64,000 bases of DNA from an uncultured bacterium (GCA_963718575.1 OY970358.1:514172-578171), one strand, 5' to 3'; positions 27,497 to 42,990 are shown, counted from the first letter of the stretch. Numbers and translations: made by a program. The notes: a model not told the origin generated them from the sequence alone.

Positions 27497-27629
27497 TCCT
27501 ATGGTTGTCCACATAGGAAGTGCGTGGTAGGGGTTATGGATATTGAATAAAAAAACTTTATCCCCAAAAAAGCACCTCACTAATAACAATAATCATAAAA
27601 AGTATTTAAATATAATTTATAATTAAGAG
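27497..27629. promoter_or_regulatory. candidate oriC segment: DnaA boxes (ttgtccaca, ttatcccca) plus AT-rich DNA-unwinding-like stretch between dnaA and dnaN
   Basis: Seen in sequence: ttgtccaca at about 27505 (inside the inverted repeat cctatg...catagg), ttatcccca at about 27558, then about 50 nt with more than 80% AT. dnaA-dnaN spacers commonly hold oriC. Confidence 0.5.
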
Positions 27630-28742
27630 ATGAAATTTATTGCGATTAGGGTGAATATTAAAGATGCAATTTCGGCGATTGAGAAAGCGGTTGGAGAAAA
27701 CACCAACCTGCCGATATTAAAAAACATCCTCATTGAGGCGGAGAATAACACCATCACATTTACCGCGACCAATCTTGAGATCGCGATAACACACCGCGTT
27801 GCGGGAAAGGTGATTGAGGATGGAAAAATAACCGTGCCACTCGCGCTTTTCTCCAGCCTTATCGGGAATATTCAAAGCGATCGGTTGAATTTTGAAAAGA
27901 AAGAAAATAATCTTGAGATCGCGACGGATAACTACAGCGCGGTGATCAATGGGATGTCACCGGAAGATTTCCCCATCACCCCAAAGATAAAAAATACCGA
28001 GAACTATATCGAGATCAAGAGTGTGTTCCTCCGGGAAGCGATCCAGCAAGTCACTGTCGCCTCACAATATTCCGATCTGCGGCCGGAGTTGAATAGTGTT
28101 TTATTTAATTTTTCAATCGAGAGCTTGATTCTCGCGTCCACTGATGGATTTCGCCTCGCGGAGCGATCCATCCCTTCAAATATGTTTGTGACAAAAAAGA
28201 AAGAGACCTTCAAAATGCTCGTTCCGTTGCGCACGAGTTTGGAGGTTTCGCGCATTATGCGTGATGACGAAGTGGTACGCATCTACCAAGATGACAACCA
28301 AGTGCTCTTTAAGAGCGACCAGACGGAGATGATCTCCCGGTTGGTGGAAGGGAGCTTCCCGGATTATTCCGCCATCGTGCCGCGCGAATTTGCGGCAGAG
28401 ATCGTGGTGGAGAAGGATGAGTTTTTGAATGCGATAAAACTCGCCGGCGTGTTTGGGCAGAAAAACAGCGAGGTAAAGATCAAGATCCATCAAAACAAGA
28501 AGGCGATCGAGATCAGCTCTGCTGACCAGGCGCTTGGCGAGAACAACAATATCCTCCCGGCAAAGATTACCGGCGATATTCCCGAAGTATTTTTCAACTG
28601 GCGCTATCTATCCGATCCGCTAAAGAGCATTAAGGCCGCGGATTTATTCATTGGCTTACAGGAAGATGCGGGGCCGGCGCTTATCCGCGCAGTGAGTGAC
28701 ACATCGTATTTCTACGTTTTGAGGCCGATCTTAAAGTCCTAG
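27630..28742 (+). CDS. dnaN: DNA polymerase III beta sliding clamp
   Basis: Three-domain beta-clamp pattern. 370 aa immediately downstream of dnaA. Confidence 0.88.
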   Translation: MKFIAIRVNIKDAISAIEKAVGENTNLPILKNILIEAENNTITFTATNLEIAITHRVAGKVIEDGKITVPLALFSSLIGNIQSDRLNFEKKENNLEIATDNYSAVINGMSPEDFPITPKIKNTENYIEIKSVFLREAIQQVTVASQYSDLRPELNSVLFNFSIESLILASTDGFRLAERSIPSNMFVTKKKETFKMLVPLRTSLEVSRIMRDDEVVRIYQDDNQVLFKSDQTEMISRLVEGSFPDYSAIVPREFAAEIVVEKDEFLNAIKLAGVFGQKNSEVKIKIHQNKKAIEISSADQALGENNNILPAKITGDIPEVFFNWRYLSDPLKSIKAADLFIGLQEDAGPALIRAVSDTSYFYVLRPILKS

Positions 28743-28748
28743 CTTTTA

Positions 28749-30892
28749 CTAACTCCCGTATCCATTCGCCTGCGCCCAGTTTTCCACACCCGTTTCCCAA
28801 TTGTTATATTCAGGGTCTGTTGCCGGGTTTGTGGGATCTGGCCCGGTCGGATCGCTTTTATCAACATAGTAGAGGATGTTGTGGACTTGCCCGTTGATGA
28901 CGTATTGCCCCGTGAGGACTGGCTTTGTGGCGGTCGTCGGGGCGGGCGGCGTGAAGGTTGTGTTTGGCACTTCGGGCAGCGCTTGCGTCATGAACGCGTT
29001 CCACATCGGAACCGCCGCCAAAATACTTGAACCCGCTTTTTGCATCGGTGCGTCGTTATTGTTTCCTGCCCAGACGCCGACGACGATCGACGGCGTGTAT
29101 CCCATCGCCCACGCATCGGTGTAGTTGTTCGATGTTCCGGTCTTGAGCGCCACGTCATAACCGGGGAAGACGGTGAGGCCCTGGCTTCCGCCCATAAGTG
29201 GCGCCCGCGCCGCGGCGTCGGATAAAATATCATTGATGAGATTGACCGACTGCGCGTCCGCGACCTGGGTTGTTTGATCCTGATATGATTCCAGCGTGTT
29301 GCCATTCGCGTCGGTCACGGAGAGCACCATCGTCTGCGCGTGTTTCACGCCTTGATCGGCAAGCACAGAATATGCTTCGGTGAGATCGATAAGGTGTACT
29401 GCGCCGCCGCCGAGGACGAGTGAGAGGCCGTACTGCGCCGGGTCGGTGAGTGTGGTGAGGCCGAAGTTGTATGCGTTCTGGATCGCGTTGTGTCTCGCCC
29501 ACAAGGTAAAGCGCTTTTACCGCCGGCACGTTCACGGACTGTGCCAGCGCGTCGCGGATGGTAAGCGGGCCTGCAAACGTACCCTCAAAGTCCTGTGGGT
29601 GGAAACAATTCTTATCGGTTGAATTGAAGTCAGGGACTGCCGGGCATTCGGCGTCAATGCTGAACTCCGTGGGAACATCGAATAATATCGTGTCCGGCGT
29701 GTAGCCCATTTGGAAGGCGGTCATATAGACGAATGGTTTGAGCGATGACCCCGGTTGGCGAAGGCCTTGCGTTGCCACGTCGAAGTTGCCGTCATTCGCG
29801 GTGTCGAAGTAATTTGCAGAGCCAACGAGAGCGAGAATCTGCCCCGTGGCGGGGTCTTGTACCACCATCGCGGCGTTCGTCGCTTGATAGAGTTGCTGTG
29901 TTGCGTGCGACGCCCGCAGTGACCGCGGCTTCTGCCTGTTGTTGCATCGTCCAGTTGAGCGTCGTGATCACCTTAAGGCCGCCGTTATCAACCTCATTCT
30001 CGCCATATTTCTGCACGAGATAATTTTCCACCGCCATCACGAAGTGCGGCGCGCGGATTCCCGAGCCGCTCGCGGTCTGTGGCTGAAAAACGATCTTAAA
30101 ATTCTGTGCTGCGGTGAGCTGGGCTTTTGTGATCTTGCCGGTGCTATACATCTGCTGGAGCACCAACTGCTGGCGTTGGAGCAGTTCATCTACGTGCGTG
30201 CCGTACGGGTAATAATACGTCGGCGCCTGCGGTAATGCGGCGAGCACCGCGCTCTGCGCGATGTTGAGCTGATCGACCGGCACGCCGAAGTAATCTTCGG
30301 CCGCCTCACCGACGCCCGAGATGTTCGGCCCGTAGGGAACCTCATTTAAATAAAGCGCCAAGATCTGATCTTTTGAATAATATTCATTAAGCTTGACCGC
30401 AAGGATGAACTCGCGGATCTTGCGCGAGAGCGTCTGGTTGAGCGTCAGGAATGCGGTGCGCGCGAGCTGTTGGGTGATCGTCGATCCGCCCTCCGCAAAG
30501 GAATGGGTGGTGATATCAACATAGAGCGCCCGGAAGATGCCTTTTATATCGAACGCCGGCTCATTATAAAAATTCTGGTCTTCGATGGCGATCGTGGCAT
30601 CCTTCACGCTCTGCGGAATCTGATCAAACGGCACGAGCGTCCGATGGTCGCCATTATCAACATCGTAAAGCAGTACGGTGCCCGTCCGGTCGTAGATCTT
30701 TGTGGACTGGCTGATCTGCTGGCTGCCGATCTCCTGGATAGACGGCACGGTCTTTGCAAAATAGAGCACCGCGATGAAAAGTGCGATCACGCATGCGGCG
30801 ATGACGACCCCCGTTATCTGGAGGATCTTTATATACTTCTTTTTCTTTCGCCCGGACTTCGACTGAGAATTATTTTTAAGGTCGTTGTTCAT
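28749..30892 (-). pseudogene. class A penicillin-binding protein (PBP1A-like transglycosylase/transpeptidase) interrupted by two frameshifts
   Basis: Three consecutive minus-strand ORFs in different frames carry, in order, the GT51 transglycosylase motifs (EDQNFYNE, GGSTITQQL) in 29792-30892, the transpeptidase SSLKP (SxxK) and SVN motifs in 29230-29868, and KTGT in 28749-29504. Either a pseudogene or indel errors. Confidence 0.7.
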
Positions 30893-30970
30893 AAAAACGT
30901 CTCTTTATTTTACCTCTTTTCACTTCTTTCTTGTATTCTCTCCCTCTTCTTATTCACGGAGAGATAAAAA

Positions 30971-31036
30971 ATACCCACCGCTGTTGAGCGAGTGGGCGTT
31001 CTTACGCCGGAGCGAGACAGCGGTGGGTATTTTTTA
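30971..31036. repeat. copy 2 of conserved hairpin-embedded element (outer stem atacccaccgctgt/acagcggtgggtat, 14 bp perfect; core TGAGCGAGTGGGCGTTCTTACGCCGGAGCGAGA) plus T-run; likely terminator downstream of ruvC
   Basis: Seen in sequence. Confidence 0.65.
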
Positions 31037-31267
31037 TTAAGCTATTCTAACGGCTCTGCGTCGTCTGTTCCGGCGTCGCCGGCATCGGGAGCATCATCGT
31101 CTTCGTCCTCGTCGGTGTCATCGAGGTCGGTGTCGGGGCTGCTGGTTTCAATCGGGTCTTTTTCCTCGTCGGTCAACCCTGCCCACTCGAACTTAAACGG
31201 AAATAATTCGGTTACCATAGTTACAAATAATTAAACGACCTTTTTTATTTTCAACCAGTATATTGTA

Positions 31268-31750
31268 TCACCGCGTCGTGTCAAGCAAGCGCTCGCCTGT
31301 GGATAAAATCGCGAGCGCAAGCGCATCGCTCGCGTCGTCAATCACCGCAAGGTCGGGCTTATTAAGGATGAGGCGCACCATCTTAAGCACCGCTTTCTTA
31401 TCCGCAAAGCCGTATCCCGCCACGCCGGACTTCACTTCGTTCGGAGTGTACTCCTTTATACGAACACCACGCTCTTTTGTTGCAAGGAGGATGACGCCGC
31501 GCGCCTGCGCCACGGCGAGCGCGGTCTTGGTGTTCTTGGCAAAAAAGAGCTTTTCGATGGCCATCACATCCGGCTTGTGCTTTTTGATGAGCGCATCCAC
31601 GCCCTTTTTTGTTTCCTCAAGCGCCGACACGTCATCCGCTGTTTTTATTTCCAGGATCCCTGCCGCGACGAGCGTGAGCGCCGACCCGTCGCATTTCACG
31701 ACGCCATATCCTATTCTCCGACTCCCCGGGTCGATACCGAGCGCGATCAT
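31268..31750 (-). CDS. ruvC: crossover junction endodeoxyribonuclease RuvC
   Basis: MIALGIDPGSRRIGYGVV... N-terminus with the catalytic Asp, and a conserved C-terminal DDA(S)DALA motif. The start is an internal Met of track ORF 31268-31951. Confidence 0.9.
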   Translation of the reverse strand: MIALGIDPGSRRIGYGVVKCDGSALTLVAAGILEIKTADDVSALEETKKGVDALIKKHKPDVMAIEKLFFAKNTKTALAVAQARGVILLATKERGVRIKEYTPNEVKSGVAGYGFADKKAVLKMVRLILNKPDLAVIDDASDALALAILSTGERLLDTTR

Positions 31751-31760
31751 GAAAGTATCA

Positions 31761-32303
31761 TTAAAAGTTAATATTTGTGTAGACGTTTTGGACGTCGTCG
31801 TTGTCCTCGAGCGCTTCAAGTAAATCCACAAGCTTTTCTTTTTCGGCATCCTCCGCGATATCCTGCGGAAATTTCGCATTCCAATCGCGTTCTTCTCCCT
31901 CTGATAACGCAAAGGCCCACTGCACACTTCCGGACTCCGCCCACTTGCCATTATGATCCCGCAGAATCGTTTTTATTTCCTGCACGGTGCGATTACGGTT
32001 ATCGCTTACGGCGGTGATGATGATCGCCGCGCCGGCCGGGCCATATGCTTCGTATAATAATTCCTCGAGCTTTTCCGATGGATCCGATGCGCGCTTGATC
32101 GCGCGGTCGATCGTGTCCGCCGGCACGCCGGCCTCGCGCGCTTTTGACACCACGGTGCGGAGCCGGGGATTGAAGTCCGGGTTCGGCTCGCCGTGCGCCG
32201 CCGCCGAGATCAGTTTGAGCGACTTCGAAAATATCTTCGCCCGCTTCTTGTCGGTGATCTCTTTTTTATGTTTTATTCCCGCCCAGTGTGAATGTCCTGA
32301 CAT
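31761..32303 (-). CDS. YebC/PmpR-family probable transcriptional regulator
   Basis: N-terminus MSGHSHWAGIKHKKEITDKKRAKIF is the YebC hallmark. Conserved adjacency to ruvC. Shorter (180 aa) than typical. Confidence 0.85.
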   Translation of the reverse strand: MSGHSHWAGIKHKKEITDKKRAKIFSKSLKLISAAAHGEPNPDFNPRLRTVVSKAREAGVPADTIDRAIKRASDPSEKLEELLYEAYGPAGAAIIITAVSDNRNRTVQEIKTILRDHNGKWAESGSVQWAFALSEGEERDWNAKFPQDIAEDAEKEKLVDLLEALEDNDDVQNVYTNINF

Positions 32304-32412
32304 AGTGGTATTCTCACGAGCATTATATCGCCGCGCCCGGGCAAAAAAAAGCCCGCAGGATCCGGCAAAGACCATGCGGGCAAAGTGGAACGGGAGAAAA
32401 GGAATGCAACAC

Positions 32413-33252
32413 TTAATCTGTCGGTGAATCGGTGGGCGCGGGCGCGGGAGTCATTGTCGGACTTCCCGGCTTTACCGATGAAGCATTGGTGGACAGCTGC
32501 CCCTCTTTGCGTTCTTGATCGAAGCTCAGCGCGACATGCGTCACGTGTCCTGGTTGAACCGCGACCTTCATGGTGATCTGGCCACCTTTTATTTTTGCGG
32601 TGACCTCGTAGTCGCCGGGATCGAGATGTAATACCTCTCCCGAGATTCCAGAAAAGTTCTTTACCCGGCCATGTGTCGCGTCACGTCCATTCAAAAGGAC
32701 ATTTCCATTCTCTACCTCTTTCAGGTCCTTTTTAGGGATCTGGTCGAGGTCGAATTTAATGCCCGATAGATTGGCCGGCTCTCCAATGGCAAATTGGTAT
32801 CCGTATCCAAGCGATCCGTAATACCAAACCCCCGGATAAAATCCCCATGAGTAATACCATCCGGGCCCGTACCATATCCCCCAAAGGAGTCCGCCTGGCC
32901 ACCATCCACGCTGGTGAAATGCTCCAGCGGCAATTTCGGCGTTTCGGAATCCGCCAATGGATTCACTGCGAACAACTTCCCTTGAAGTAAAGGCGCTGTG
33001 ATTGGTATTGAAGCGTTGTTGGATGTTCGTCGGTTGCGATCTGCGAGAGGCCGTTTCATTTCTCGGTTGGGAGTTATCACGCGGTGCGCGAACTGTGTTC
33101 GCGCTTCTCACACTAACGCCGCCGGTGCTCCGCGCTACACTACCCGACGACGATCCGCCACGCGAACCACCGCCACCGCGCTGCGCCTCTGCCGCGAACG
33201 GCAGAAGAGCGAGAGCCAATAAAGTGATTACCGCAAACATTCTGAGTTTCAT
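32413..33252 (-). CDS. secreted protein with signal peptide, Gly/Ser-rich and Trp/Tyr/Gly-rich segments, C-terminal beta-sandwich-like domain
   Basis: Signal peptide MKLRMFAVITLLALALLPFAAEA. Unusual aromatic-rich block (GWWPGGLLWGIWYGPGWYYSWGFYPGVWYYGSLGYGY). No family assigned. Confidence 0.5.
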   Translation of the reverse strand: MKLRMFAVITLLALALLPFAAEAQRGGGGSRGGSSSGSVARSTGGVSVRSANTVRAPRDNSQPRNETASRRSQPTNIQQRFNTNHSAFTSREVVRSESIGGFRNAEIAAGAFHQRGWWPGGLLWGIWYGPGWYYSWGFYPGVWYYGSLGYGYQFAIGEPANLSGIKFDLDQIPKKDLKEVENGNVLLNGRDATHGRVKNFSGISGEVLHLDPGDYEVTAKIKGGQITMKVAVQPGHVTHVALSFDQERKEGQLSTNASSVKPGSPTMTPAPAPTDSPTD

Positions 33253-33295
33253 GATTCCTCTTCTCCGCGCCGGTTTGGCGCTGCCATATTCAAAT

Positions 33296-33324
33296 TTGAC
33301 TGCATGGTTCTGCGCTCATTATAC
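33296..33324 (+). promoter_or_regulatory. sigma70-like promoter candidate for pilB (TTGACT-17nt-TTATAC)
   Basis: Seen in sequence about 90 nt upstream of the pilB start. Weak -10. Confidence 0.3.
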
Positions 33325-33412
33325 CACCAAACTGTGCAATATGTCAATAATTGTTAAAAATCCATTAAAATCGGCTTGAACGGCGGCTTTTTAAGGGGTA
33401 TCATCTATATAA

Positions 33413-35089
33413 ATGCTGGATGCACCTCAGAACGACCTAAAAGAGAAGCTCGCCAAACTACATCGCGATGGCGAAGAGCGGGCGGCAGAACGGCTTGCGG
33501 AGAAGCTCGGGCTTTCGTATGTGGACCTGGCGAAGATCCCCGTGTCGCTCGACGCGGTGCGTATTCTGCCCGAGGCCGAGGCAAGGGATGCGAAGGTCGG
33601 CGCGATCGAGGTGAAGGGGAATAAGGTGGCGCTCGCCGCGATCAACCCGGAACTCCCTGCCACAAAAAAAATCGTGGAAGGGTTAGTTGAGAAAAAATAT
33701 GAAGTGAAAGTGGTCGTCGTTTCGCCGGCGAGCATGGAAGCGGCATGGCATTTCTATCAGTTCATCAAGCCCGTGTCGGAATCGATCACGGGCGAGGTGG
33801 ATATAAAAAAGGCGCGGCTCGATGAATTAAAGGCGCGGCTCGTCACGCTCGACGCGGTGCATAAGGAGATCGCCGCGCTCCCGCTCGCGAACGTTTCCCC
33901 GGTGGCGCTCATCGAAATTATTTTAGCGGGCGCGATGGGATTGCGCGCGTCGGATATTCATACCGAGGCCGGAGAAAAAAAGGCTAAGATCCGTTTTCGC
34001 GTTGACGGGTTATTGCACGATATTTTCGATGACATTCCGCTCGAGACCTACCGCACGTTTGTGTCGCGCATAAAATTATTATCCGCGATGAAGCTGAATG
34101 TGCGCGATGCGGCGCAGGACGGCCGATTCACGATCGGGCTTGGCGATAAGGATATTGAGATGCGCGTATCGGTGATCCCGGCGGAGTTCGGCGAGACGAT
34201 CGTGATGCGTATCCTTGATCCATCGGCGACGATGGTGGGCTTGCCGGACCTCGGCTTGCGCGCAGACAATTTAGATATCGTAAAACGCCAGATCGCAAAA
34301 CCGAATGGGCTGATATTGAACACCGGCCCGACCGGTTCCGGAAAGACGACCACACTCTACGCATTCCTGCGCACGATGAATGATCCGACGATGAAGATCA
34401 TCACGCTTGAGGACCCGATCGAGTATCGCATTGATGGTGTGGAACAGACGCAGGTGGACGAGGAATCGGGCTACACGTTTGCGAACGGCCTGCGCGCGAT
34501 CGTGCGGCAGGATCCGGACGTTATTCTTGTGGGCGAGGTGCGCGATCTTGAGACGGCGGACATCGCGCTGCAAGCGGCGCTCACCGGGCATTTGGTGTTA
34601 TCCACGTTGCACACAAACGATGCGGTCGGCGCGGTGCCGCGTTTGATCAATCTTGGCGTGAAAGCGGTGAGCATCGGCCCGGCGCTCTCGCTTGCGATCG
34701 CGCAACGCCTGGTGCGTGTATTGTGTAAGGAATGCAAAAAGGTCGCCGACGTGGACGCCGCGACCGCGGAGAAGATCAAAAATTTCTTAAGCAAGCTGCC
34801 CGCAAAGGTTGATAAGAAGCCCTACGATGGCTACAAGATCTACGCGCCGGTGGGTTGCGATAAATGCAACGGCATCGGATATAAAGGTCGCGTGGGCGTG
34901 TTTGAATTTTTAGAAGGCGGCCCGGATTTAGAGAAAACAATTTTGCACGAAGCATCGGAGCTCGCTCTGCGCGAAGTGGCTCAGCGTCAGGAGATGGTCA
35001 CGATGCAGCAGGATGGAATATTGAAAGTGCTTGAGGGAAAGACGACGTTCGATGAAGTGGCGAGCGCGACGGGGGAGTTGGTGTGGTGA
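33413..35089 (+). CDS. pilB: type IV pilus assembly / type II secretion ATPase (GspE/PilB family)
   Basis: Walker A GPTGSGKTTT, Asp box, His box, a Walker B region (ILVGEVRD), and a C-terminal tetracysteine motif (C..C...CDKCNGIGY). N-terminal GSPII_E-like domain. 558 aa. Confidence 0.85.
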   Translation: MLDAPQNDLKEKLAKLHRDGEERAAERLAEKLGLSYVDLAKIPVSLDAVRILPEAEARDAKVGAIEVKGNKVALAAINPELPATKKIVEGLVEKKYEVKVVVVSPASMEAAWHFYQFIKPVSESITGEVDIKKARLDELKARLVTLDAVHKEIAALPLANVSPVALIEIILAGAMGLRASDIHTEAGEKKAKIRFRVDGLLHDIFDDIPLETYRTFVSRIKLLSAMKLNVRDAAQDGRFTIGLGDKDIEMRVSVIPAEFGETIVMRILDPSATMVGLPDLGLRADNLDIVKRQIAKPNGLILNTGPTGSGKTTTLYAFLRTMNDPTMKIITLEDPIEYRIDGVEQTQVDEESGYTFANGLRAIVRQDPDVILVGEVRDLETADIALQAALTGHLVLSTLHTNDAVGAVPRLINLGVKAVSIGPALSLAIAQRLVRVLCKECKKVADVDAATAEKIKNFLSKLPAKVDKKPYDGYKIYAPVGCDKCNGIGYKGRVGVFEFLEGGPDLEKTILHEASELALREVAQRQEMVTMQQDGILKVLEGKTTFDEVASATGELVW

Positions 35090-35106
35090 GTAAGACAGTT
35101 TTATTA

Positions 35107-35137
35107 GAAAAAAGAAACCGACCAGCGATGGTCGGTC
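35107..35137. terminator. hairpin (aaccgacc agcgat ggtcggt) flanked by an A-run upstream and a T-rich stretch downstream; candidate bidirectional terminator
   Basis: Seen in sequence between convergent pilB and small gene A. Confidence 0.4.
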
Positions 35138-35165
35138 ATTAAAATTGATTTTGGGCATCGGTCCG

Positions 35166-35498
35166 TCACCTGCCGCCGGTGGCTCTGTCTATCATTTCCA
35201 CCCGGCCTTCCTGCGTCCCCTTCGCTAATCCCATCTTATAGATGCCGCTAAACATCAACTCAAGCGTGGTTTGAATACTATCTCCATCGGTATCGCTGAC
35301 AGCGACAAGGGCCTCAAGCGCTGATATCCCTAATTCGCACCCCTCCGGCGAGACGAAATCAAAGGAATCGATAACAACCTCGTTATTCGTTGCGTAGGCT
35401 TTTACTCTACGCGCGAACGTAGCGGGATCGTTTGGAAATATATTGGCATAAATTTCCGCAGGACAGGTGTTGTCGTTGCGGATAAATGCGATTTTCAT
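35166..35498 (-). CDS. small hypothetical protein, paralog A of a tandem pair
   Basis: About 110 aa. Shares the core IY.A.I...TF..R.....V..FD with the neighbouring ORF 35670-36047, and a conserved ~45-nt 5' leader. Start uncertain (Met10 or Met14 of the track ORF). Confidence 0.45.
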   Translation of the reverse strand: MKIAFIRNDNTCPAEIYANIFPNDPATFARRVKAYATNNEVVIDSFDFVSPEGCELGISALEALVAVSDTDGDSIQTTLELMFSGIYKMGLAKGTQEGRVEMIDRATGGR

Positions 35499-35669
35499 CA
35501 CAGCCCCCATTTCCCTGCTTGCCAGTTTCTGGTTCAAGACTTATTGGAAATTTTGAAGAACTATCGGGATTGCTCCCACTAAAAAATTCTCGTTTGAAAA
35601 TACTTTAGTGAAAGCCCAACCGAGGTTGGGCACCTGCATTGCAGGATTTAATGACCGTTTTTCGGCTGG

Positions 35670-36047
35670 TCAGACCGCCGCATTGGAAGTTGTTGCCTGC
35701 CTTCTCATCGCTTCACTAAAGCCCGCGATGTAGAATGTAGCCAACAATTCCTGCCACGCTCGAGGGTCACTCTTTTGGAGTTTCTCGAAAAGAGTAGCGG
35801 GGCATTGATCTTTGGAGGCGGCGTGACGGATGGTGGGCATATCAAACATACCCACAAGCTGCTCGCCGTTTCCGCAATCCACGTAGCGGTTAAAGAAGGT
35901 GTTGCTGGCGTCTTCGCGAGATGTCCCCTCGGCAATACCTGCCCAGTAGATAGGCGGAGCTTCCTCATCTTCGTGATCGCATTCCGGATCCATGTGCTGG
36001 CACGGACACAAAGACGGCTGCGCTATCACTCCCAGAAAAAATGTCAT
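35670..36047 (-). CDS. small hypothetical protein, paralog B of a tandem pair (Cys/His-rich N-terminus)
   Basis: 125 aa. N-terminal CPCQHMDPECDHEDEE. Central region homologous to paralog A. Same conserved leader upstream. Confidence 0.45.
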   Translation of the reverse strand: MTFFLGVIAQPSLCPCQHMDPECDHEDEEAPPIYWAGIAEGTSREDASNTFFNRYVDCGNGEQLVGMFDMPTIRHAASKDQCPATLFEKLQKSDPRAWQELLATFYIAGFSEAMRRQATTSNAAV

Positions 36048-36411
36048 AACTGGCTCCCGCTTCCATACCTGCCTTTTGGGTCAGGGTTTATTGGAATTTA
36101 GAAAATTAAAGGTGCGGAGCCCACTCAAACGTAGTAGACTCAGACCTGGGGGCAATTCCTCGCGAAAGGATAATGATCTCTTCTATCTAATGATAAAAGA
36201 GGCTAGAATTACTCAAAGGAGTGGACCAGCCGAAACCGGTACATCCTGTAGTTTTTAGAAATAACTCCCGCCCCCAGATCTGAATCAGCTACTTTTAAGG
36301 AACTTCGGTCAACTTGCCAACAGCCCTTATTTATTGGGCACTGGGATATGTTAGCATATAGAATATTATTTGTCAAGTCCCACCTTATCCCCACGTAATT
36401 CACATCCGACT

Positions 36412-37434
36412 ATGCCAAAAACACCCCCGACAACCAACAACGCCAACGGCTCTGGCAATAAAGAGGACCCGAATATCGATCTCACCCTCCGACCTACCGA
36501 GTGGGATGAATACATTGGTCAGGAAAAAATAAAAGATAATTTGAAGACTATTTTGAGCGCCGCGAAAAAGCGTGGCGAGTCCGCTGACCATCTTTTATTT
36601 TCCGGCCCGGCAGGTCTTGGGAAAACAACACTCGCGTATCTCGTCGCGCGAGAGCTTGGCGGGTTGATAAAAACGACCTCCGGCCCGGCGCTTGAAAAGG
36701 CAGGCGACCTCGCCGCAGTGCTCACCAATTTAACGCCCGGCGAAATTTTATTTATCGATGAGGCACACCGCATTAATCCGATGATCGAAGAAGTGTTGTA
36801 TCCGGCGATGGAGGCGCGCAAGCTGCACCTTGTCGTTGGCAAAGGGCCGTCGGCGCGGACGCTCTCGCTCGATCTGCCGCCGTTCACGCTGATCGCGGCG
36901 ACGACTCGGGAGAATTTACTTTCGCAACCGTTGCGCTCGCGCTTTGGCGCGACGCTGCGTCTTGGCTATTACACGCCGGATGATATTAAAAGCATCTTAA
37001 AACGCTCGGCGGCGATATTGGGCGTGGAAGCAAAGCCGGAGGCAATCGATATTCTCGCGCGCGCGTCGCGCGGGACGCCGCGCGTGGCAAACCGTCTGCT
37101 CCGCCGCGCGCGCGATTTTGCGGAAGTGCACGGCGAGAGCGTGATCGACGAGGACGCGGCGCGGAAGACGCTCGCGATGCTCGAGATCGATGAGGTGGGT
37201 CTTGAGCCGCAAGACCGCGAGCTTCTTATGACAATCATCGAGAAGTTTCACGGCGGACCCGTCGGCATCAACACCATCGCCGCCGCGCTTGCGCAGGACC
37301 GCGGCGCGATCGAAGACATCTATGAGCCGTATCTGATGACGCTCGGGTTTTTACAGCGCTCTTCTGCGGGGCGGATTGTTCTGCCTGCGGCGTATCGGCA
37401 TCTGAAGATAAAAGGATACGAGGAGTTGTTGTAG
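36412..37434 (+). CDS. ruvB: Holliday junction branch migration helicase RuvB
   Basis: Walker A GPAGLGKTTLA, Walker B ILFIDEAHR, sensor and arginine-finger regions, and a C-terminal winged helix. The start is the internal Met MPKTPP of track ORF 36370-37434. Confidence 0.93.
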   Translation: MPKTPPTTNNANGSGNKEDPNIDLTLRPTEWDEYIGQEKIKDNLKTILSAAKKRGESADHLLFSGPAGLGKTTLAYLVARELGGLIKTTSGPALEKAGDLAAVLTNLTPGEILFIDEAHRINPMIEEVLYPAMEARKLHLVVGKGPSARTLSLDLPPFTLIAATTRENLLSQPLRSRFGATLRLGYYTPDDIKSILKRSAAILGVEAKPEAIDILARASRGTPRVANRLLRRARDFAEVHGESVIDEDAARKTLAMLEIDEVGLEPQDRELLMTIIEKFHGGPVGINTIAAALAQDRGAIEDIYEPYLMTLGFLQRSSAGRIVLPAAYRHLKIKGYEELL

Positions 37435-37464
37435 TCGTATTAAAAAATCATTAAATTATTTTTG

Positions 37465-37552
37465 CATTTTCCTTCGGCTCGTGTAACATAAAAATATGCT
37501 TGTGGGCGAAAGCCCCTTTCAGCTAAGGGACGCCTAAAGCCGAAGACAAGCA
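37465..37552 (+). ncRNA. candidate structured small RNA or 3'UTR element downstream of ruvB
   Basis: Seen in sequence: GNRA hairpin gggcGAAAgccc, hairpin ccctt-tcagct-aaggg, and crossing helices ccttcggct/agccgaag and gcttgt/acaagc. These sit immediately 5' of a strong terminator. No family assigned. Confidence 0.25.
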
Positions 37553-37580
37553 CAACAAAAACGCCGCCCTCGGGCGGTGT
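37543..37580. terminator. strong bidirectional Rho-independent terminator (gccgccc tcgg gggcggt flanked by aacaaaaac / gtttttgtt)
   Basis: Seen in sequence. 7-bp GC stem extended by a complementary A/T-run on each side. Confidence 0.65.
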
Positions 37581-37918
37581 TTTTGTTGTGCTAATCATCT
37601 TCGATCCCATCGGTAAAAAGCTTCTGGCGTTTATTTTGTTGTAGATGGGAGTACGGCATGACGCTCCAAACATGGATATTCCCTATTTCTCTCTGTGCGC
37701 ATGGAACGCTGGAGGTGATTAACCCCATCCGCATTGAGAATTGTTTCCTGCTTAAAAAACGGGCTATAGATCGTCCGTTGTGTATCGTAAATTTGGCGCG
37801 CCTTTTCCTTTTTCTGTTCGAAATAACCATCATCCATGAATAATATCGTAGATTATTTCTCGTTCGATACCAAAAAGTTTTTAAGAATTTTTTAATATTA
37901 TTTCGGTATGATGAGCCA

Positions 37919-38495
37919 ATGATATATATCAACGAATGGTTTCCAAACCCGGTTGGCAATGATGCGGCCGGGGAATTTATTGAACTCTATAATAGTGGTG
38001 CGGCCACGGTAAGTCTCGATGGCTATGCGCTGGGCGATGGCGCAAAAAAGAGATTCTCATTAAGTGGCTACAGCATCCCGCCCGGCGGCTATTTGGTGTT
38101 AACACACGCAGACGACAAGCTGACTTTGAAAAATACCAACGGGGAAGTATTGTTATATGGGCCGAGCGGGCAAGTGGTGGATAGTGCGAGCTTTACTGGC
38201 GCGGCGCCGGAGGGGAGGAGTTTTTCGCGAGTGGATTACGGCGCGGCGACGATCGCAGCACTTTGCGTTCGTGTATCCGACGCCCGGCGCGGCGAACAAG
38301 ACGGTCGATACGACAGTGCACGCGAATGAGTATCCGTCGGGAGTTTCTCTTTCGCGTCAACTTTCGCCGGGTGCGTTCACGCTGCTCACGTTCGGCGTCG
38401 GATCGTTTTTTCTGCTATTCTTCATTTATGCCATCCAAAAAAATAGAAACATATCACAGTTTTTCTTCGGAGGAGACGAAGAAACTGGGGTTTGA
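37919..38495 (+). pseudogene. lamin-tail-domain (LTD) protein with C-terminal TM anchor, interrupted by a frameshift near 38240-38260
   Basis: LTD signature (INEWFPNPVGNDAAGEFIELYNSG...VSLDGYAL...IPPGGYLVL...EGRSFSR) in frame 1. The end of the domain (VYPTPGAANKT) and a TM helix continue in frame 2 (track ORF 38157-38495). Confidence 0.55.
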
Positions 38496-38893
38496 TATTG
38501 CGCAAAAGCTCGAAGCGCGGTCCGGCGGTGTTCGCGCTCCAGGGCGATCTTGGCGCGGGGAAGACGACGTTCACGCAGGGGTTTCTAAAAGGGCTGGGAT
38601 CGAAGAAGCGCGCAACAAGCCCGACGTTCGTGTTGATGCGCCGACACGGGCTTGGCAGTGGCACGCGTGGCGGCAAGAAATTCAAAAATGTTTTTCACAT
38701 CGACGCCTATCGCCTGAAAAAGCCGGAGCATCTGGCGGCGCTCGAGCTCGATGTTATCCTTAACGAACCGGGCAATATCGTTCTCATCGAGTGGCCGGAG
38801 CAGGCGAAAAAATTTTTACCAAAGCATACGGTATGGATAAAATTCAAATACGGGAAAAACGAGAACGAACGGATAGTCACAATAAAGAGATGA
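38428..38893 (+). pseudogene. tsaE: tRNA threonylcarbamoyladenosine biosynthesis protein TsaE, interrupted by a frameshift near 38515
   Basis: TsaE N-terminus (MPSKKIETYHSFSSEETKKLGFDIAQKLEA) lies in one frame (track ORF 38263-38763). The P-loop core (VFALQGDLGAGKTTFTQG...SPTF...IDAYRL...IEWPE) lies in another frame (38492-38893). Confidence 0.65.
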
Positions 38894-39858
38894 AAAAACT
38901 TTTACTTATCGATGCGAACTCGATTATCCACCGATCGTTCCACGCTTTGCCGCCATTTACGACGCCGGAGGGAAAACCGTCGGGCGCGATCTATGGCATC
39001 GCAAGTATTTTACTCAAGCTGTGGCGTGATGAGCGCCCGGACTACGCCGCTGCGCTTTTTGACCGGCCGGAGCCGACGTTTCGCGACGAGAAATATGCGG
39101 AGTACAAAGCCCAGCGCCCGCCCACGGCGGAAGAGCTTGTCTCGCAAATTATAGAGGCTCATAAATTATTCGACGCCTTCGGCATTAAAACTTTTGAAAA
39201 GGCGCGCTACGAGGCGGACGATCTTATTGCGACGCTTGCGGAGAAATTTAAAACATTGCCGGATGTGCGGGTCGTGATCTTGACCGGCGATCGCGACACG
39301 CTGCAGATGGTGGAAGGGGACAAGCTCGTCGTGCAGACGTTCAACAAGGGCGTGAGCGACACCACGATATATAACGAACCGGCGGTGATCGAAAAGTACG
39401 GCATCGCGCCGAAGCAGATGGTGGATTACAAGGCGCTCGTCGGCGATTCGTCGGACAACATCAAGGGCGTGCCGGGCGTGGGGCCGAAGACGGCGTTGGA
39501 GTTGATCAAACGATTCGGCACGGTGAAGGAAATGTATAAACAGCTGGATGGCAAGGCGGTGGCGGATGACGATGCTGAGCTGAAAAAAATTCGCGCGCGT
39601 TTCGGCGCGTTCAAAAAAGACGCTGAGCTTTCGGAAATGCTCGTGACGCTCGAGCGCCATGCGCCGATCGAGATCCCGCCGATCGAGGAACTCGCGCCAT
39701 TCGAGAATACCGACGCTGCGGCGAAGTATTTCGAGAAGATGGGATTCGCCACGCTTCTGAAGCGGATCCTTATGCCCGCGGCGGACGAAAAGATCGAAGC
39801 GAAGAAGAGCCCAAAAATAAAGTCGAAGCCCAACAACAATCAGACGGCGCTTTTTTAA
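38890..39858 (+). CDS. 5'-3' exonuclease (Pol I N-terminal / FEN-like domain, stand-alone)
   Basis: MKKLLLIDANSIIHRSFHA..., acidic catalytic residues (YEADDLIATLA, LTGDRD), and an H3TH motif (VPGVGPKTALELI). The start overlaps the tsaE stop (ATGA). 322 aa, no polymerase domain. Confidence 0.85.
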   Translation: MKKLLLIDANSIIHRSFHALPPFTTPEGKPSGAIYGIASILLKLWRDERPDYAAALFDRPEPTFRDEKYAEYKAQRPPTAEELVSQIIEAHKLFDAFGIKTFEKARYEADDLIATLAEKFKTLPDVRVVILTGDRDTLQMVEGDKLVVQTFNKGVSDTTIYNEPAVIEKYGIAPKQMVDYKALVGDSSDNIKGVPGVGPKTALELIKRFGTVKEMYKQLDGKAVADDDAELKKIRARFGAFKKDAELSEMLVTLERHAPIEIPPIEELAPFENTDAAAKYFEKMGFATLLKRILMPAADEKIEAKKSPKIKSKPNNNQTALF

Positions 39859-39892
39859 GAATAGCTCGCGGTGATGCTATAATAGAGGGACA

Positions 39893-41241
39893 TTGAAGAA
39901 TCAAACCTCAAAATTCAAAGAAGTCATTTTTTGGCCGGAATTCCAGTTAATCTGGGCGCTCATTGCGACCATTGTTGCGCTGATCGTTATTAATAGCGCG
40001 AGCTTCGCCAATCTGGGATTATGGATGATCGTCGCGGACGCCGCTTTGTTTTTGATCATCATCGCGCTTTCCGCGCTCGGCATTTATACTTCCGCGAAGA
40101 AGGATCGCGACACGAGCGTCGAGCGCAGTGAGCTGAACAGCATCCTTGAAGAGCTCAACGACGGGCTCATCGTATACGAAGCCGACTTCCGCGTGATCTT
40201 CTTCAATCCCGCGGCGGAGCGCATCTTTCAAGTTTGGATGCCAAGGCGGTGGTCGGCCACGTATTTTCTCCGCGCGACGTGGAGCGCGAGGGATGGCGCA
40301 CGCTCACACAGATCGTGTTCCCGTCGCTTGCGCCGCGCGTCGTCGCACGCACGAAAGAGGACGAGTATCCGCAGATCGTCGATATCTCATTCACTGATCC
40401 GCCGCTCGAATTCCGCGTGACGACCGCGCCGATCGTGGACGAGCGCGGCAGTACACTCGCGTTCATGAAGATCATCCGCGATCGGACGTCGCAGGTGCTC
40501 GCGCTGCGCTCAAAGAGCGAGTTCGTGACCGTCGCTTCGCACCAATTGCGCGGGCCGGTGACGGACATCAGCTGGGCATTGCAGTCGCTTACCAATATCC
40601 ACGGGACTGGATGATACCAATAAGATGATCCTCGATACACGCGCTTGCCGCGAGCCAGAGTCTTTTGCGCCGCATTGAGGACTTGTTGAATATCGCGAAG
40701 ATGGAAGACGGCCAGTTCGGATATAAGTTTGAAGACGCCGACATCGCCGATTTTATCTCGAAAGTATTAATGGAGGTTTTGCCTGCCGCGCAGAAGGCGG
40801 GGATCAAGATATATTTCGACCGGCCGCAGGAGCCCCTGCCCCATGTGATGATCGATCCGCGCCGGCTCTCGCTCGCGCGTCACGAATCTTCTCGAGAATG
40901 CGATCCGCTACAACGTGGAGAATGGCGAGGTGACGGTGAAGGTGGATAAGATGCAGGACAAGCCGTTCGTCGTGGTGAGCGTGAAGGACACCGGCATCGG
41001 CATCCCGCCGGAGGCCATCGAAAAGCTTTTCAACAAGTTCTACCGCGCCGACAATGCGCTCAAGCGCCAGACCGAAGGCTCCGGCCTCGGACTCTATATC
41101 GCAAAAGGCATCGTGAACGCCCACGGCGGCCAGATCTGGGCCGAATCCGAGCTCAATCGCGGCACCACGATCTCCTTCGCACTGCCCACCGACCCGAATT
41201 TGGTGCCAAAGACCGAGATCGGCGCGGAGGATTTGTTTTAG
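39893..41241 (+). pseudogene. sensor histidine kinase (TM-PAS-HisKA-HATPase_c) fragmented by at least 3 frameshifts
   Basis: Four successive ORFs in different frames carry the TM and PAS start (39893-40420), the PAS end and H-box SHQLRGPVT (40234-40614), the X/N region RRIEDLLNIAKMEDGQ (40665-40949), and the N/G1/G2 ATPase motifs (40915-41241). Junction near 40640 reconstructed as a 1-nt shift. Confidence 0.7.
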
Positions 41242-41283
41242 CTCTTCCCTTGTGATTTATTTTCGCATATACTTGTAGGCGAA

Positions 41284-42990
41284 ATGAGCGCGTCGAAATC
41301 CAAGCCCACCCACAAATATATTTTCATCGTCGGGGGAGTGATGTCGGGTGTCGGCAAGGGGGTTGCGTCGTCATCCATCGGAAAAATTTTGCAGTCGCGC
41401 GGACTCGAGGTCACGTCGATCAAGATCGATCCGTATGTGAACGTCGACGCGGGCACCATGAACCCCACCGAACACGGTGAGGTTTTTGTTTTGGACGACG
41501 GCACGGAGTGCGATCAGGATATGGGCAACTACGAGCGCTTTTTGGACCGCGATCTCTCCGGCGTGAACTACATGACGACGGGAAGCATCTATCAGACGGT
41601 CATCCAGCGCGAGCGGAGCATGGGCTACGGCGGAAAATCGGTGAGCGTGGTGCCGCACATCCCGATGGAAGTGATCGATCGCATCGATCACGCGGCGGAA
41701 CTCGCAAAGGCGGACGTCGTGATCACGGAAATCGGCGGCACTGTCGGCGAGTACGAGAACATTCTTTTCATCGAAGCGATCCGCATGATGAAGTTCAGGC
41801 ATCCGAAAGATGTGCTCGTGGTGCTCGTGAGCCACTTGCCGATCATGAGCGATGACAATGAGTTGAAGACCAAGCCGACGCAGCAGGCGGTGCGCGCGCT
41901 GAACGGCACGGGCTTGCAGCCGGATATCATTCTCGCGCGCGCGAAGTATCCGCTCGACGACAAGCGCAAGGAAAAGATCGCGTTCAATTGCGGCCTGCGC
42001 GAAGAGGACGTCATTTCCGCGCCGGATGTTTCGAGCCTCTACGATATTCCGGTCAATTTTGAAAACGACAATCTTGGTAATTTAATTTTGGAAAAACTTT
42101 CGATGCGCCCGCGCGCGAAGGACATGAAGGAGTGGCGCGCGTTCGCAGAAAAGATCCATAATGCGAAGGAGGTGGTGCGCATCGGCATCGTCGGGAAATA
42201 TTTTTCGAGCGGAAAATTCATTTTGGCGGACTCGTATCTTTCTGTAATCGAATCGATCAAGCACAGCGCCGCGTTCTGGGGCGTGAAGCCGGAGATCAAG
42301 TGGCTCGACTCGGGCCAGTTCGAGGATGTGAAGGATGGCGGCCAGGGTGCGGCCGGCCTGAGGGAACTCGACGGTTTTGACGGCATCATCGTGCCGGGCG
42401 GTTTCGGTTCGCGCGGCGTGGAAGGTAAATTGAAGGCCATTCAATACTGCCGCGAGAACAAGATCCCGTACTTTGGGCTTTGCTACGGGATGCAGCTCGC
42501 GACGGTGGAATTTGCGCGAAATGTTTTGAAAATGAAGGGTGCGAACACGACGGAGATCGACCCGAAGACGAAGTATCCGATCATCGACATTTTGCCGGAG
42601 CAAAAGAAGTTGATGGAAGAAAAGAAATATGGCGCGACCATGCGGCTTGGTGCGTATCCTGCGGTACTTAAACGGGGAACGATTGCCGAGAAGGCATATG
42701 GCCACGAGAAGATCTCCGAGCGGCACCGGCATCGCTACGAGGTAAATCCGGCTTACGTGGATCGACTCGAAAAAGGCGGCGTCACTTTCTCCGGCGTGTC
42801 GCCGTCGCGGCGTTTGATGGAAGTGATGGAACTCCCGCGAAGCGTCCATCCGTTCTTCCTTGGCACGCAGTTCCATCCGGAGTTGAAATCGCGCCCGCTC
42901 AAGCCGCACCCGTTGTTCCGCGAGTTCATGAAGGCCGCGAAAGCGCGGCGCGGGGCGGCCCATCCGAACGCAGTGGCAACGGCAGTGTAG
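41284..42990 (+). CDS. pyrG: CTP synthase
   Basis: N-terminal synthetase domain (KYIFIVGGVMSGVGKGV), and a C-terminal glutamine amidotransferase domain with catalytic GLCYGMQ and His/Glu. 568 aa. Confidence 0.95.
   Translation: MSASKSKPTHKYIFIVGGVMSGVGKGVASSSIGKILQSRGLEVTSIKIDPYVNVDAGTMNPTEHGEVFVLDDGTECDQDMGNYERFLDRDLSGVNYMTTGSIYQTVIQRERSMGYGGKSVSVVPHIPMEVIDRIDHAAELAKADVVITEIGGTVGEYENILFIEAIRMMKFRHPKDVLVVLVSHLPIMSDDNELKTKPTQQAVRALNGTGLQPDIILARAKYPLDDKRKEKIAFNCGLREEDVISAPDVSSLYDIPVNFENDNLGNLILEKLSMRPRAKDMKEWRAFAEKIHNAKEVVRIGIVGKYFSSGKFILADSYLSVIESIKHSAAFWGVKPEIKWLDSGQFEDVKDGGQGAAGLRELDGFDGIIVPGGFGSRGVEGKLKAIQYCRENKIPYFGLCYGMQLATVEFARNVLKMKGANTTEIDPKTKYPIIDILPEQKKLMEEKKYGATMRLGAYPAVLKRGTIAEKAYGHEKISERHRHRYEVNPAYVDRLEKGGVTFSGVSPSRRLMEVMELPRSVHPFFLGTQFHPELKSRPLKPHPLFREFMKAAKARRGAAHPNAVATAV

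What the first reader, a model, noticed from the sequence alone, without database searches (positions are those of the whole stretch)
28749..41241. Cluster of genes interrupted by single-nucleotide frameshifts (PBP1A, LTD protein, tsaE, sensor histidine kinase)
Within ~12.5 kb, four otherwise well-conserved genes are split across frames at 1-nt shifts: PBP1A twice, LTD protein once, tsaE once, histidine kinase at least three times. The VirB4 split is a possible fifth.

The interrupted sites are not obvious homopolymers. One example is near acacgcgcttgcc at about 40640.

Inference: either systematic indel errors (long-read or low-coverage assembly), or ongoing gene decay in a host-dependent lineage. 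Loss of PBP1A, a two-component sensor and tsaE would be biologically meaningful.
Basis: seen in the sequence. Interest (0 to 1): 0.55.

Follow-up and report, generated by a model that had tools for sequence, protein, structure and literature searches.

The report
Assembly-made frameshifts, not gene decay
Four genes in this small uncultured bacterium look broken only because nine extra bases were written into the assembled sequence where two co-occurring strains differ, so this is most likely an assembly error and not gene loss.

Summary
PBP1A, an LTD protein, TsaE and a PAS histidine kinase are each split across reading frames between 28749 and 41241.

I mapped every break. There are 8 events totalling 9 nt, and all are insertions in the window: 29491, 29895, 38255, 38512, 40230-31, 40602, 40639 and 40879. 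Removing them restores ORFs of 713, 191, 154 and 447 aa with no internal stops.

Contigs of the same species from other assemblies are 98.6-99.99% identical and cover 58.8 of the 64 kb. They lack all 8 insertions, encode intact genes, and show no other indel against the window.

The insertions lie inside the part of the window that varies between strains, where the SNPs are mostly synonymous. At 5 of 7 single-base sites the extra base plus its neighbour spell both alleles of a polymorphic codon (chance rate 2-5%, P about 5e-6).

Two other long contigs of this species carry the same kind of insertion-biased indels at other places, breaking dnaA, dnaN and pyrG.

The best explanation is a consensus artefact from collapsed haplotypes in a probable long-read MAG. 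Gene decay is not supported. The VirB4 "split" is the normal two-gene layout.

Read-level proof is not available here.

The parts
28749..30892 (-). PBP1A gene (class A penicillin-binding protein, transglycosylase plus transpeptidase). It is broken into 3 ORFs in the window and gives 713 aa once 2 nt are removed.
   Evidence: Pfam. Frameshift-aware alignment to the L037 orthologue gives 657/709 identical residues and only two +1 shifts. Repaired ORF. An intact 713-aa protein, P0001, is 99% identical and is encoded on L083/L084.
29491..29493 (-). Extra base 1 in PBP1A. The gene strand reads GAG-AC[A]C-AAC. The same-species contig L083 has GAG ACC AAC.
   Evidence: The long contig L001 also carries an extra base here, but with a different neighbouring base (ACAGAAC), so the codon has several alleles.
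29895..29896 (-). Extra base 2 in PBP1A. The gene strand reads ACA-[GC]-AAC. Strain B has GAA (Glu) and orthologues have CAA (Gln, 21 of 26).
37919..38495 (+). Gene for a lamin-tail-domain (LTD) protein with a C-terminal membrane segment. It gives 191 aa once 1 nt is removed.
   Evidence: Pfam. Repaired ORF. Intact 191-aa gene calls in L001 and L002.
38255..38255 (+). Extra G in the LTD gene. The window reads ATC-GCAG-CAC. Strain B has CAG (Gln) and orthologues have GCG (Ala, 8 of 12).
   Evidence: The base is absent from L001, L002 and L075.
38428..38893 (+). tsaE gene (t6A37 tRNA-modification ATPase). It gives 154 aa once 1 nt is removed.
   Evidence: Pfam. Repaired ORF. Intact 154-aa gene call in L001.
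38512..38512 (+). Extra G in tsaE (CTC[G]AAG). It lies in a linker whose length varies among orthologues.
   Evidence: The base is absent from L001, L002 and L075. The allele-merge test is uninformative at this site.
39893..41241 (+). Gene for a PAS/HisKA/HATPase_c sensor histidine kinase. It is broken into 4 or more ORFs and gives 447 aa once 5 nt are removed.
   Evidence: Pfam. Repaired ORF. An intact 447-aa protein, P0128, is 97% identical and is encoded on L085. The same gene is called at 447 aa on L089.
40230..40231 (+). Extra AA in the kinase gene. The window reads TTT-C[AA]G-TTT-GG. This is a shortest common supersequence of the strain-B allele TTTCGTTTGG (Arg-Leu) and the orthologue-type allele TTTAAGTTGG (Lys-Leu).
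   Evidence: The bases are absent from L001, L075 and L085.
40602..40602 (+). Extra C in the kinase gene. The window reads ATC-CACG-GGA. Strain B has CAG (Gln) and orthologues have ACG/ACC (Thr, 14 of 25).
   Evidence: The base is absent from L085 and L089.
40639..40639 (+). Extra A in the kinase gene. The window reads GAT-ACAC-GCG. Strain B has ACC (Thr), and L001 and the orthologues have AAC (Asn, 16 of 25).
40879..40879 (+). Extra G in the kinase gene. The window reads GCG-CGTC-ACG. Strain B has CTC (Leu) and orthologues have GTC (Val, 11 of 25).
26000..44200 (.). Strain-variable zone of the window. It holds about 75 of the 89 SNPs found against the same-species contigs, and all 8 insertions lie inside it. 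The 86 SNPs of the 10000-62753 comparison were classified: 81 are coding and mostly synonymous.

Best explanation
The eight frameshifts are errors of consensus building, not mutations.

The window very probably comes from a single-contig, long-read metagenome-assembled genome of a Paceibacterota/Parcubacteria (CPR) bacterium. The sequenced population contained at least two strains. They are identical over most of the genome but differ at 1-10% of positions in certain tracts.

Where the two strains differ by one or two substitutions within a codon, the consensus step treated the mismatch as an insertion plus a deletion and kept bases from both alleles. That wrote a 4-base 'codon' (once 5 extra-length bases) into the contig.

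Shown here:
- The positions of the insertions.
- Their absence from other assemblies of the species.
- Their restriction to the strain-variable zone.
- The two-allele signature.
- The same syndrome in two other long contigs of the species.

Inferred, not shown:
- The sequencing platform and the software step that produced the errors.
- That the second strain was present in the window's own sample.

In the organism, PBP1A, the LTD protein, TsaE and the kinase are most likely intact.
For: 1. All 8 events (9 nt) are insertions in the window. They are absent from same-species contigs produced by other assemblies: L083/L084 for PBP1A (99.91% identical over 14.1 kb, and the only 2 indels are the two breaks), L002/L075 for LTD and tsaE, and L075/L085/L089 for the kinase.

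2. Across 58.8 kb there are 89 SNPs, 8 insertion events, no base missing from the window, and no indel outside 29491-40879.

3. Deleting the 9 nt gives full-length ORFs without stops. Their lengths equal those of the intact homologues P0001 (713 aa, 99% identity) and P0128 (447 aa, 97% identity).

4. The SNPs are real strain variation under purifying selection in the repaired frames. Of 81 coding SNPs, 58 are at third codon positions, with 55 synonymous against 26 non-synonymous.

5. Allele-merge signature. At 5 of 7 single-base insertions, deleting the neighbouring base instead yields an in-frame allele. That allele encodes the orthologue-majority residue exactly where strain B differs. The null rate from 4000 random insertions per gene is 2-5%, giving P = 5e-6. 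The +2 event is a shortest common supersequence of the Arg and Lys alleles.

6. Two other long contigs of the species have indels only inside SNP-rich tracts, and these are biased towards insertions: L001 with 70 inserted and 12 deleted nt, and L086 with 17 and 4. The SNPs in those tracts are 72-80% at third codon positions. The indels break dnaA, dnaN, pyrG, lon, yidC and the virB4-like gene. Breaks in replication genes such as dnaA and dnaN are very unlikely to be real, by general knowledge of their essentiality, which was not tested here.

7. Exact proteins of the window are on record on an 881,652-bp contig held by NCBI and ENA. That size fits a complete CPR chromosome, as in the Nanopore-only MFD MAGs among its relatives. 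Those MAGs were assembled with Flye and one round of Medaka (PMC12313526). ONT soil assemblies are reported to carry more frameshift errors than HiFi assemblies (PMC13087279).

8. Nearly all of about 40 related loci have intact copies of all four genes.
Against: - No reads are available, so the error is inferred and not seen directly.
- The comparison contigs represent a slightly different strain (98.6-99.9% identical). No accurate assembly of the window's own haplotype exists to exclude strain-specific mutations.
- Several of the comparison contigs (L002, L083, L089, L090, and probably Logan L003/L084/L085) come from one sample. Only 3 of the 8 sites are also covered by a contig from another sample (L075).
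- That the comparison contigs are short-read assemblies is my inference from their sources and names.
- One break (29491-3) is shared in position with the long contig L001.
- Two of the 8 sites (29491, 38512) do not show the two-allele signature.
- The platform and the polishing step are not documented for this window.
- In a pairwise comparison, indels in L086 are not enriched next to SNPs.
Confidence: 0.9

Rival explanations
1. The frameshifts are genuine, very recent pseudogenisation in one strain of an episymbiotic CPR bacterium. Under this reading, eight real insertion mutations have inactivated PBP1A, the LTD protein, TsaE and the kinase in the window's strain only.
For: The breaks are in the sequence. 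CPR bacteria have reduced genomes, which is general knowledge. The window differs from the comparison strain by real SNPs, so it is a distinct haplotype. One break position is shared with L001.
Against: - Absent from contigs 98.6-99.9% identical to the window and from related species.
- No stop codons or other lesions, and repaired ORF lengths that equal those of the intact homologues.
- SNPs remain concentrated at third codon positions in the repaired frame.
- Eight insertions and no deletions, four of them in one gene, all inside the strain-variable zone.
- The inserted base reproduces the other allele at 5 of 7 sites (P = 5e-6). No mutation process is known to do that.
- The same syndrome breaks dnaA, dnaN and pyrG in sister contigs.
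Confidence: 0.06
2. The frameshifts are random sequencing or consensus indels caused by locally low coverage, unrelated to strain variation.
For: Long-read consensus errors are typically indels (PMC9262707, PMC13087279). The window probably comes from a long-read MAG.
Against: - Random errors would fall anywhere. Here none occurs in the 47 kb outside the variable zone.
- They would include deletions and homopolymer sites. All 8 events are non-homopolymer insertions.
- The two-allele signature is far above chance.
- A dip in coverage over the same zone cannot be excluded as a contributing factor.
Confidence: 0.03
3. The breaks are decoded by programmed ribosomal frameshifting or switched by phase variation, so the genes are expressed despite them.
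For: None beyond the presence of +1 shifts.
Against: - No slippery or repeat motif is shared by the sites, and none is a homopolymer or simple repeat.
- The shifts are not conserved in the same species or in orthologues.
- Four shifts in a single kinase gene are implausible for recoding.
Confidence: 0.01

Closest known systems
Frameshift (indel) consensus errors in long-read metagenome assemblies. These are detected by tests such as IDEEL and repaired by tools such as proovframe or by short-read polishing.
   Same: Single-base indels split otherwise conserved genes. They disappear in accurate assemblies of the same organism. They are found in a probable Nanopore-type single-contig MAG. The literature reports such errors for ONT assemblies and more of them in soil data (PMC9262707, PMC13087279).
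   Different: The classic error is a deletion or insertion in a homopolymer, spread along the genome. Here all events are non-homopolymer insertions, confined to strain-variable tracts, and they carry both alleles of a polymorphic codon. That points to haplotype collapse during consensus or polishing rather than to base-calling of homopolymers.
Collapsed-strain (chimeric haplotype) consensus in metagenome assembly, the problem addressed by Strainberry and Strainy.
   Same: Two closely related strains are represented by one contig, and the contig is a mosaic in the tracts where they differ.
   Different: Those tools address phasing of SNPs. What is seen here is the side effect of mismatches being turned into net insertions that break reading frames. 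I did not find this signature described in the papers I read.
Pseudogene accumulation in host-dependent bacteria (for example Sodalis, Mycobacterium leprae and Rickettsia-type reductive evolution).
   Same: Several conserved genes are interrupted by small frameshifts in a small-genome, probably host-dependent organism.
   Different: True decay gives lesions that are shared by close relatives, a mix of deletions and stops, relaxed substitution patterns, and a genome-wide spread. None of these is seen here.

Membership tests
Assembly/consensus indel artefact (collapsed haplotypes) | The indels are absent from independent accurate assemblies of the same species. | tested here: met
   All 8 sites are intact in L083/L084, L002, L075, L085 and L089.
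Assembly/consensus indel artefact (collapsed haplotypes) | Removing the indels restores full-length ORFs with no other lesion. | tested here: met
   ORFs of 713, 191, 154 and 447 aa with no internal stops. The lengths equal those of P0001 and P0128.
Assembly/consensus indel artefact (collapsed haplotypes) | The errors coincide with sites that are polymorphic between strains and contain bases of both alleles. | tested here: met
   All 8 lie in the SNP-rich zone. 5 of 7 single-base sites show the two-allele signature against a 2-5% null, P = 5e-6. The +2 site is a common supersequence of two alleles.
Assembly/consensus indel artefact (collapsed haplotypes) | The same kind of error occurs at other positions in other long-read-type assemblies of the species. 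| tested here: met
   L001 and L086 have insertion-biased indels only in SNP-rich tracts, breaking dnaA, dnaN, pyrG, lon and yidC.
Assembly/consensus indel artefact (collapsed haplotypes) | The reads do not support the inserted bases, and two in-frame haplotypes are visible in the pile-up. | not testable with these tools
   No read data are available. The platform is inferred only from the 881,652-bp NCBI/ENA contig and from the methods used for related MFD MAGs (PMC12313526).
Pseudogenes from reductive genome evolution | The lesions are inherited, that is, shared with close relatives. | tested here: not met
   Absent at 98.6-99.9% identity. Nearly all related species have intact genes. Only 29491-3 is shared in position, and only with L001.
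Pseudogenes from reductive genome evolution | Additional lesions and relaxed selection (stops, deletions, excess non-synonymous change). | tested here: not met
   No stops after repair. Synonymous to non-synonymous counts are 14:12 in the kinase, 2:2 in PBP1A and 2:0 in LTD, against 16:8 in the intact pyrG. The numbers are small, so there is no clear relaxation.
Programmed ribosomal frameshift / phase-variable repeat | A conserved slippery or repeat motif at a shift site that is conserved in orthologues. | tested here: not met
   The site contexts are unrelated and non-repetitive. Orthologues and same-species contigs are in frame.
Class A PBP, TsaE, LTD protein and PAS histidine kinase (identity of the four genes) | The diagnostic Pfam domains are present and the gene length is orthologue-like after repair. 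| tested here: met
   Transgly plus Transpeptidase, TsaE, LTD, and PAS/HisKA/HATPase_c. After repair PBP1A is 92.7% identical to the orthologue in L037.

The most novel reading that the evidence does not exclude
The insertions are real and arose in the cell. Under this reading, recombination between diverged alleles of two co-existing CPR strains left heteroduplex mismatches that were mis-repaired into 'merged' four-base codons, so one strain truly lost PBP1A, TsaE, an LTD surface protein and its sensor kinase in a burst. This would be an undescribed, recombination-linked route to pseudogenes. The sequence data alone cannot separate it from a consensus artefact, because both predict merged alleles in variable tracts. 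It is disfavoured because sister contigs show the same pattern in dnaA, dnaN and pyrG, where breaks are very unlikely to be real.
Probability: 0.03. Interest if true: 0.75.

Novelty: not a real feature. Interest (0 to 1): 0.1.

Why it matters
For biology it matters mainly as a warning. Taken at face value, the window would suggest that a CPR bacterium is losing its only class A PBP, the essential t6A factor TsaE and a two-component sensor. That conclusion would be wrong.

For genome quality control the case is instructive. These errors are not the familiar homopolymer indels. They are clustered, insertion-only, and sit exactly where strains differ. They therefore survive high coverage, concentrate in the most variable (often most interesting) genes, and mimic localised gene decay.

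The simple 'both alleles in a row' test used here could flag such sites in long-read MAGs without any reads.

Tried and rejected
1. Methylation-motif base-calling error. Early on, several window-specific differences seemed to create CpG or TCGA. With all 8 sites and 86 SNPs in hand, no common motif remained, so I dropped the idea.

2. Homopolymer error. None of the sites is in a run longer than 3 bases.

3. Adjacency of indels to SNPs in pairwise alignments of L001 and L086. The effect is weak for L001 (0.44 against 0.28 expected) and absent for L086. The pairwise view hides the second allele, so I replaced this with the orthologue-based allele-merge test.

4. VirB4 as a fifth frameshift: rejected.

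5. ClpP (2876-3571) and pyrophosphatase (3493-4035) as a split gene. They are two different genes, and the overlap is only an ORF extension.

6. Looking for the window's own genome among the GTDB species representatives. The best match was only 90% identical at protein level, so the source record and its metadata could not be read.

7. Rfam search for the conserved element at 36.1-36.3 kb: no match.
Full report
**What the window is**

The window is a gene-dense stretch from a Candidate Phyla Radiation bacterium. The gene order runs rnpA, dnaA, dnaN, PBP1A, ruvC, yebC, pilB, ruvB, LTD, tsaE, a 5'-3' exonuclease, a histidine kinase and pyrG.

A search of genome representatives with PilB (33413-35089) returned Paceibacterota, Parcubacteria and Minisyncoccia MAGs at up to 90% protein identity, with the same gene order.

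Pfam places the following fragments:
- Transglycosylase on ORF 29792-30892(-).
- The two halves of the transpeptidase domain on 29230-29868(-) and 28749-29504(-).
- LTD on 37919-38329.
- TsaE on 38492-38893.
- PAS, HisKA and HATPase_c on separate ORFs between 39893 and 41241.

Elsewhere the window is tiled by long intact ORFs.

**Exact anatomy of the breaks**

A frameshift-aware alignment of the PBP1A region to the orthologue in L037 gave 657/709 identical residues and just two +1 shifts. Nucleotide alignments with 10-16 orthologues and with same-species contigs fixed every site.

| Site | Gene |
|---|---|
| 29491-3 | PBP1A |
| 29895/6 | PBP1A |
| 38255 | LTD |
| 38512 | tsaE |
| 40230-31 | kinase |
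| 40602 | kinase |
| 40639 | kinase |
| 40879 | kinase |

All eight events are insertions in the window, 9 nt in total, and none is in a homopolymer. Deleting them yields ORFs of 713, 191, 154 and 447 aa with no internal stop.

**Same-species evidence**

Exact-protein look-ups and homology searches recovered contigs of the same species from other assemblies:

| Locus | Source | Window span | Identity |
|---|---|---|---|
| L090 | JGI 3300041431 | 1-6088 | 99.95% |
| L087 | JGI 3300041431 | 10000-26470 | 99.99% |
| L083 | JGI 3300041431 | 18749-32886 | 99.91% |
| L002 | JGI 3300041431 | 32926-38711 | 99.81% |
| L089 | JGI 3300041431 | 40273-62753 | 99.75% |
| L003, L084, L085 | Logan SRR13781587 | parts of 26975-42116 | 98.6-100% |
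| L088 | Logan ERR11563597 | 10389-18281 | 99.99% |
| L075, L076 | other JGI samples | 34871-40438; 30708-33614 | 99.4%; 100% |

Together they cover 58.8 of the 64 kb.

Against them the window shows 89 SNPs and exactly the eight insertion events. It has no missing base and no indel anywhere else.

In these contigs the genes are intact. PBP1A is 713 aa (P0001, 99% identical to the repaired window protein). The kinase is 447 aa (P0128, 97% identical). LTD is 191 aa and TsaE 154 aa.

Nearly all of about 40 loci from related species also have full-length copies. The few split copies there are mostly in Nanopore-type MFD MAGs, for example PBP1A in L007.

**The strain background**

Differences between the window and the other contigs are patchy. 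There are stretches of 5-15 kb with no difference at all, and a variable zone between about 26 and 44 kb that holds about 75 of the SNPs.

The SNPs are real biological variation. Of the 81 coding SNPs classified, 58 are at third codon positions and 55 are synonymous in the repaired frames. So the window represents a distinct haplotype that evolved under purifying selection with these genes in frame.

**The signature of the insertions**

At most sites the extra base and its neighbour are the two alleles of a polymorphic codon.

| Site | Window | Strain B | Orthologues |
|---|---|---|---|
| 29895/6 | ACA-GC-AAC | GAA | CAA |
| 38255 | GCAG | CAG | GCG |
| 40602 | CACG | CAG | ACG |
| 40639 | ACAC | ACC | AAC |
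| 40879 | CGTC | CTC | GTC |
| 40230-31 | TTTCAAGTTTGG | TTTCGTTTGG | TTTAAGTTGG |

The window sequence at 40230-31 is a shortest common supersequence of the two alleles shown.

I formalised this as a test. For each single-base insertion, delete a neighbouring base instead, and ask whether the resulting in-frame allele changes the strain-B residue into the majority residue of 12-26 orthologues. Five of seven observed sites pass. Only 2-5% of 4000 random insertions per gene pass, giving P = 5e-6.

A mutation process has no reason to insert the other strain's base. A consensus built from a mixture of two haplotypes does.

**The same syndrome in sister assemblies**

Two other long contigs of the species behave alike when compared with the accurate contigs. 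These are L001 (JGI 3300077760, 59.8 kb) and L086 (ENA ERZ25039484 contig_32193, 276 kb).
- They match perfectly outside divergent tracts.
- Inside those tracts, 72-80% of SNPs are at third codon positions.
- Their indels are strongly insertion-biased: 70 inserted and 12 deleted nt in L001, and 17 and 4 in L086.

Their indels break dnaA, dnaN, pyrG, PBP1A and the kinase in L001. In L086 they break the Lon-like protease (Lon_C/Mg-chelatase domains), yidC and the virB4-like ATPase. All these genes except PBP1A and the kinase are intact in the window. Breaks in replication genes such as dnaA and dnaN are very unlikely to be real, which is my inference from general knowledge of their essentiality.

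**Probable provenance**

Exact copies of the window's PilB, DnaA and PyrG are on record on an 881,652-bp contig held by NCBI and ENA. That is the size of a whole CPR chromosome. Several relatives are single-chromosome MFD MAGs. Those were produced from Nanopore reads only, with Flye and one round of Medaka (PMC12313526). More frameshift errors in ONT than in HiFi assemblies of soil samples are reported in PMC13087279. The platform of this particular window remains an inference.

**Conclusion**

The frameshifts are best explained as merged-haplotype consensus errors (confidence about 0.9).

Real, very recent pseudogenes in one strain cannot be strictly excluded without reads. That reading would require eight insertions and no deletions, each copying the other allele, in genes that otherwise look selected (about 0.06). 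Random low-coverage errors and programmed frameshifting fit poorly.

**Caveats**

- The comparison contigs are a slightly different strain, and most come from one sample.
- Two sites (29491 and 38512) lack the signature.
- The 29491-3 position also carries an extra base in L001, although with a different adjacent base. The accurate contig L083 shows a third, in-frame allele there (ACC), so the codon has several alleles.

**The VirB4 question**

ORFs 18216-18923 and 18932-20668 are separated by a stop codon and 8 nt. They are identical in the other assemblies. Homologues of the first piece are almost all stand-alone proteins of 210-235 aa. This is the normal layout, not a frameshift.

**Side finding**

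Between 35670-36047(-) and ruvB lies a segment of about 166 nt (36131-36296, + strand). It is 84-98% identical in most relatives compared (about 70% in the two most distant), while their flanking genes are only about 75-85% identical.

It folds into a long closing stem with three inner hairpins. The consensus structure has 46 pairs, 97.5% of cells paired, and 15 pairs with compensatory changes. Shuffled controls give 7.0 ± 1.4 such pairs, and slid registers give 35-52% pairing. G-U pairs favour the + strand.

Rfam 15 has no match even at E ≤ 1. It looks like an undescribed structured RNA of this CPR clade and deserves its own follow-up.

Noticed in passing
window 36131-36296 (+), between ORF 35670-36047(-) and ruvB (36370-37434): A conserved element of about 166 nt, 84-98% identical in most relatives compared, whose flanking genes are only about 75-85% identical. 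The consensus fold has 46 pairs, 15 with compensatory changes against 7.0 ± 1.4 in shuffles, and 97.5% of cells paired against 35-52% in slid registers. There is no Rfam 15 match at E ≤ 1. It is a candidate undescribed structured RNA of this Paceibacterota clade.
   Followed up: partly
window 18216-18923 and 18932-20668 (+): The 'VirB4 split' is a native two-gene layout: a TraC-like N-terminal protein of about 230 aa followed by a 578-aa DUF87/TraG-P-loop ATPase. Homologues of the first piece are nearly all stand-alone proteins of 210-235 aa, and the junction is identical in the other assemblies.
   Followed up: yes
window 11675-24182 (+): A type IV secretion / conjugation-like gene cluster with PrgI-like, T4SS-pilin-like and VirB4-like genes. 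It includes two large proteins (788 and 804 aa) and several others with no Pfam match. It is perfectly conserved between strains (0-1 SNP in 14 kb).
   Followed up: no
L001 (JGI 3300077760 Ga0645786_0979) and L086 (ENA ERZ25039484 contig_32193): Two other long public contigs of this species carry dozens of insertion-biased indels confined to strain-variable tracts. These break dnaA, dnaN, pyrG, lon, yidC and the virB4-like gene. Gene calls from these records are unreliable in those tracts.
   Followed up: yes
window 26000-44200 versus the rest: Strain divergence is strongly mosaic. There are 5-15 kb stretches with zero differences next to tracts with 1-10% mostly synonymous differences. Alleles are shared in different combinations among L001, L075, L085 and the window (for example at 40323-40335). 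This suggests frequent homologous recombination in this CPR population.
   Followed up: partly
L007 (OY970354.1, MFD04540.bin.2.12), L009, L005: Among related species, the few split copies of PBP1A, tsaE and LTD are mostly in Nanopore-type MFD MAGs, for example PBP1A as 550 + 183 aa in L007. This hints that the same artefact is common in that data set.
   Followed up: no
window 32413-33252 (-): A 279-aa predicted secreted protein with a Gly/Ser-rich N-terminal part and a Trp/Tyr/Gly-rich segment. It has no Pfam match and is conserved next to pilB in the same-species contigs.
   Followed up: no
window 62781-63097 (+) and 49985-50057 (+): A tmRNA (tag peptide ANSNVAAPRAFAFA) and tRNA-Arg(CCG). 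These are the only Rfam/ARAGORN RNA genes found in the window.
   Followed up: yes
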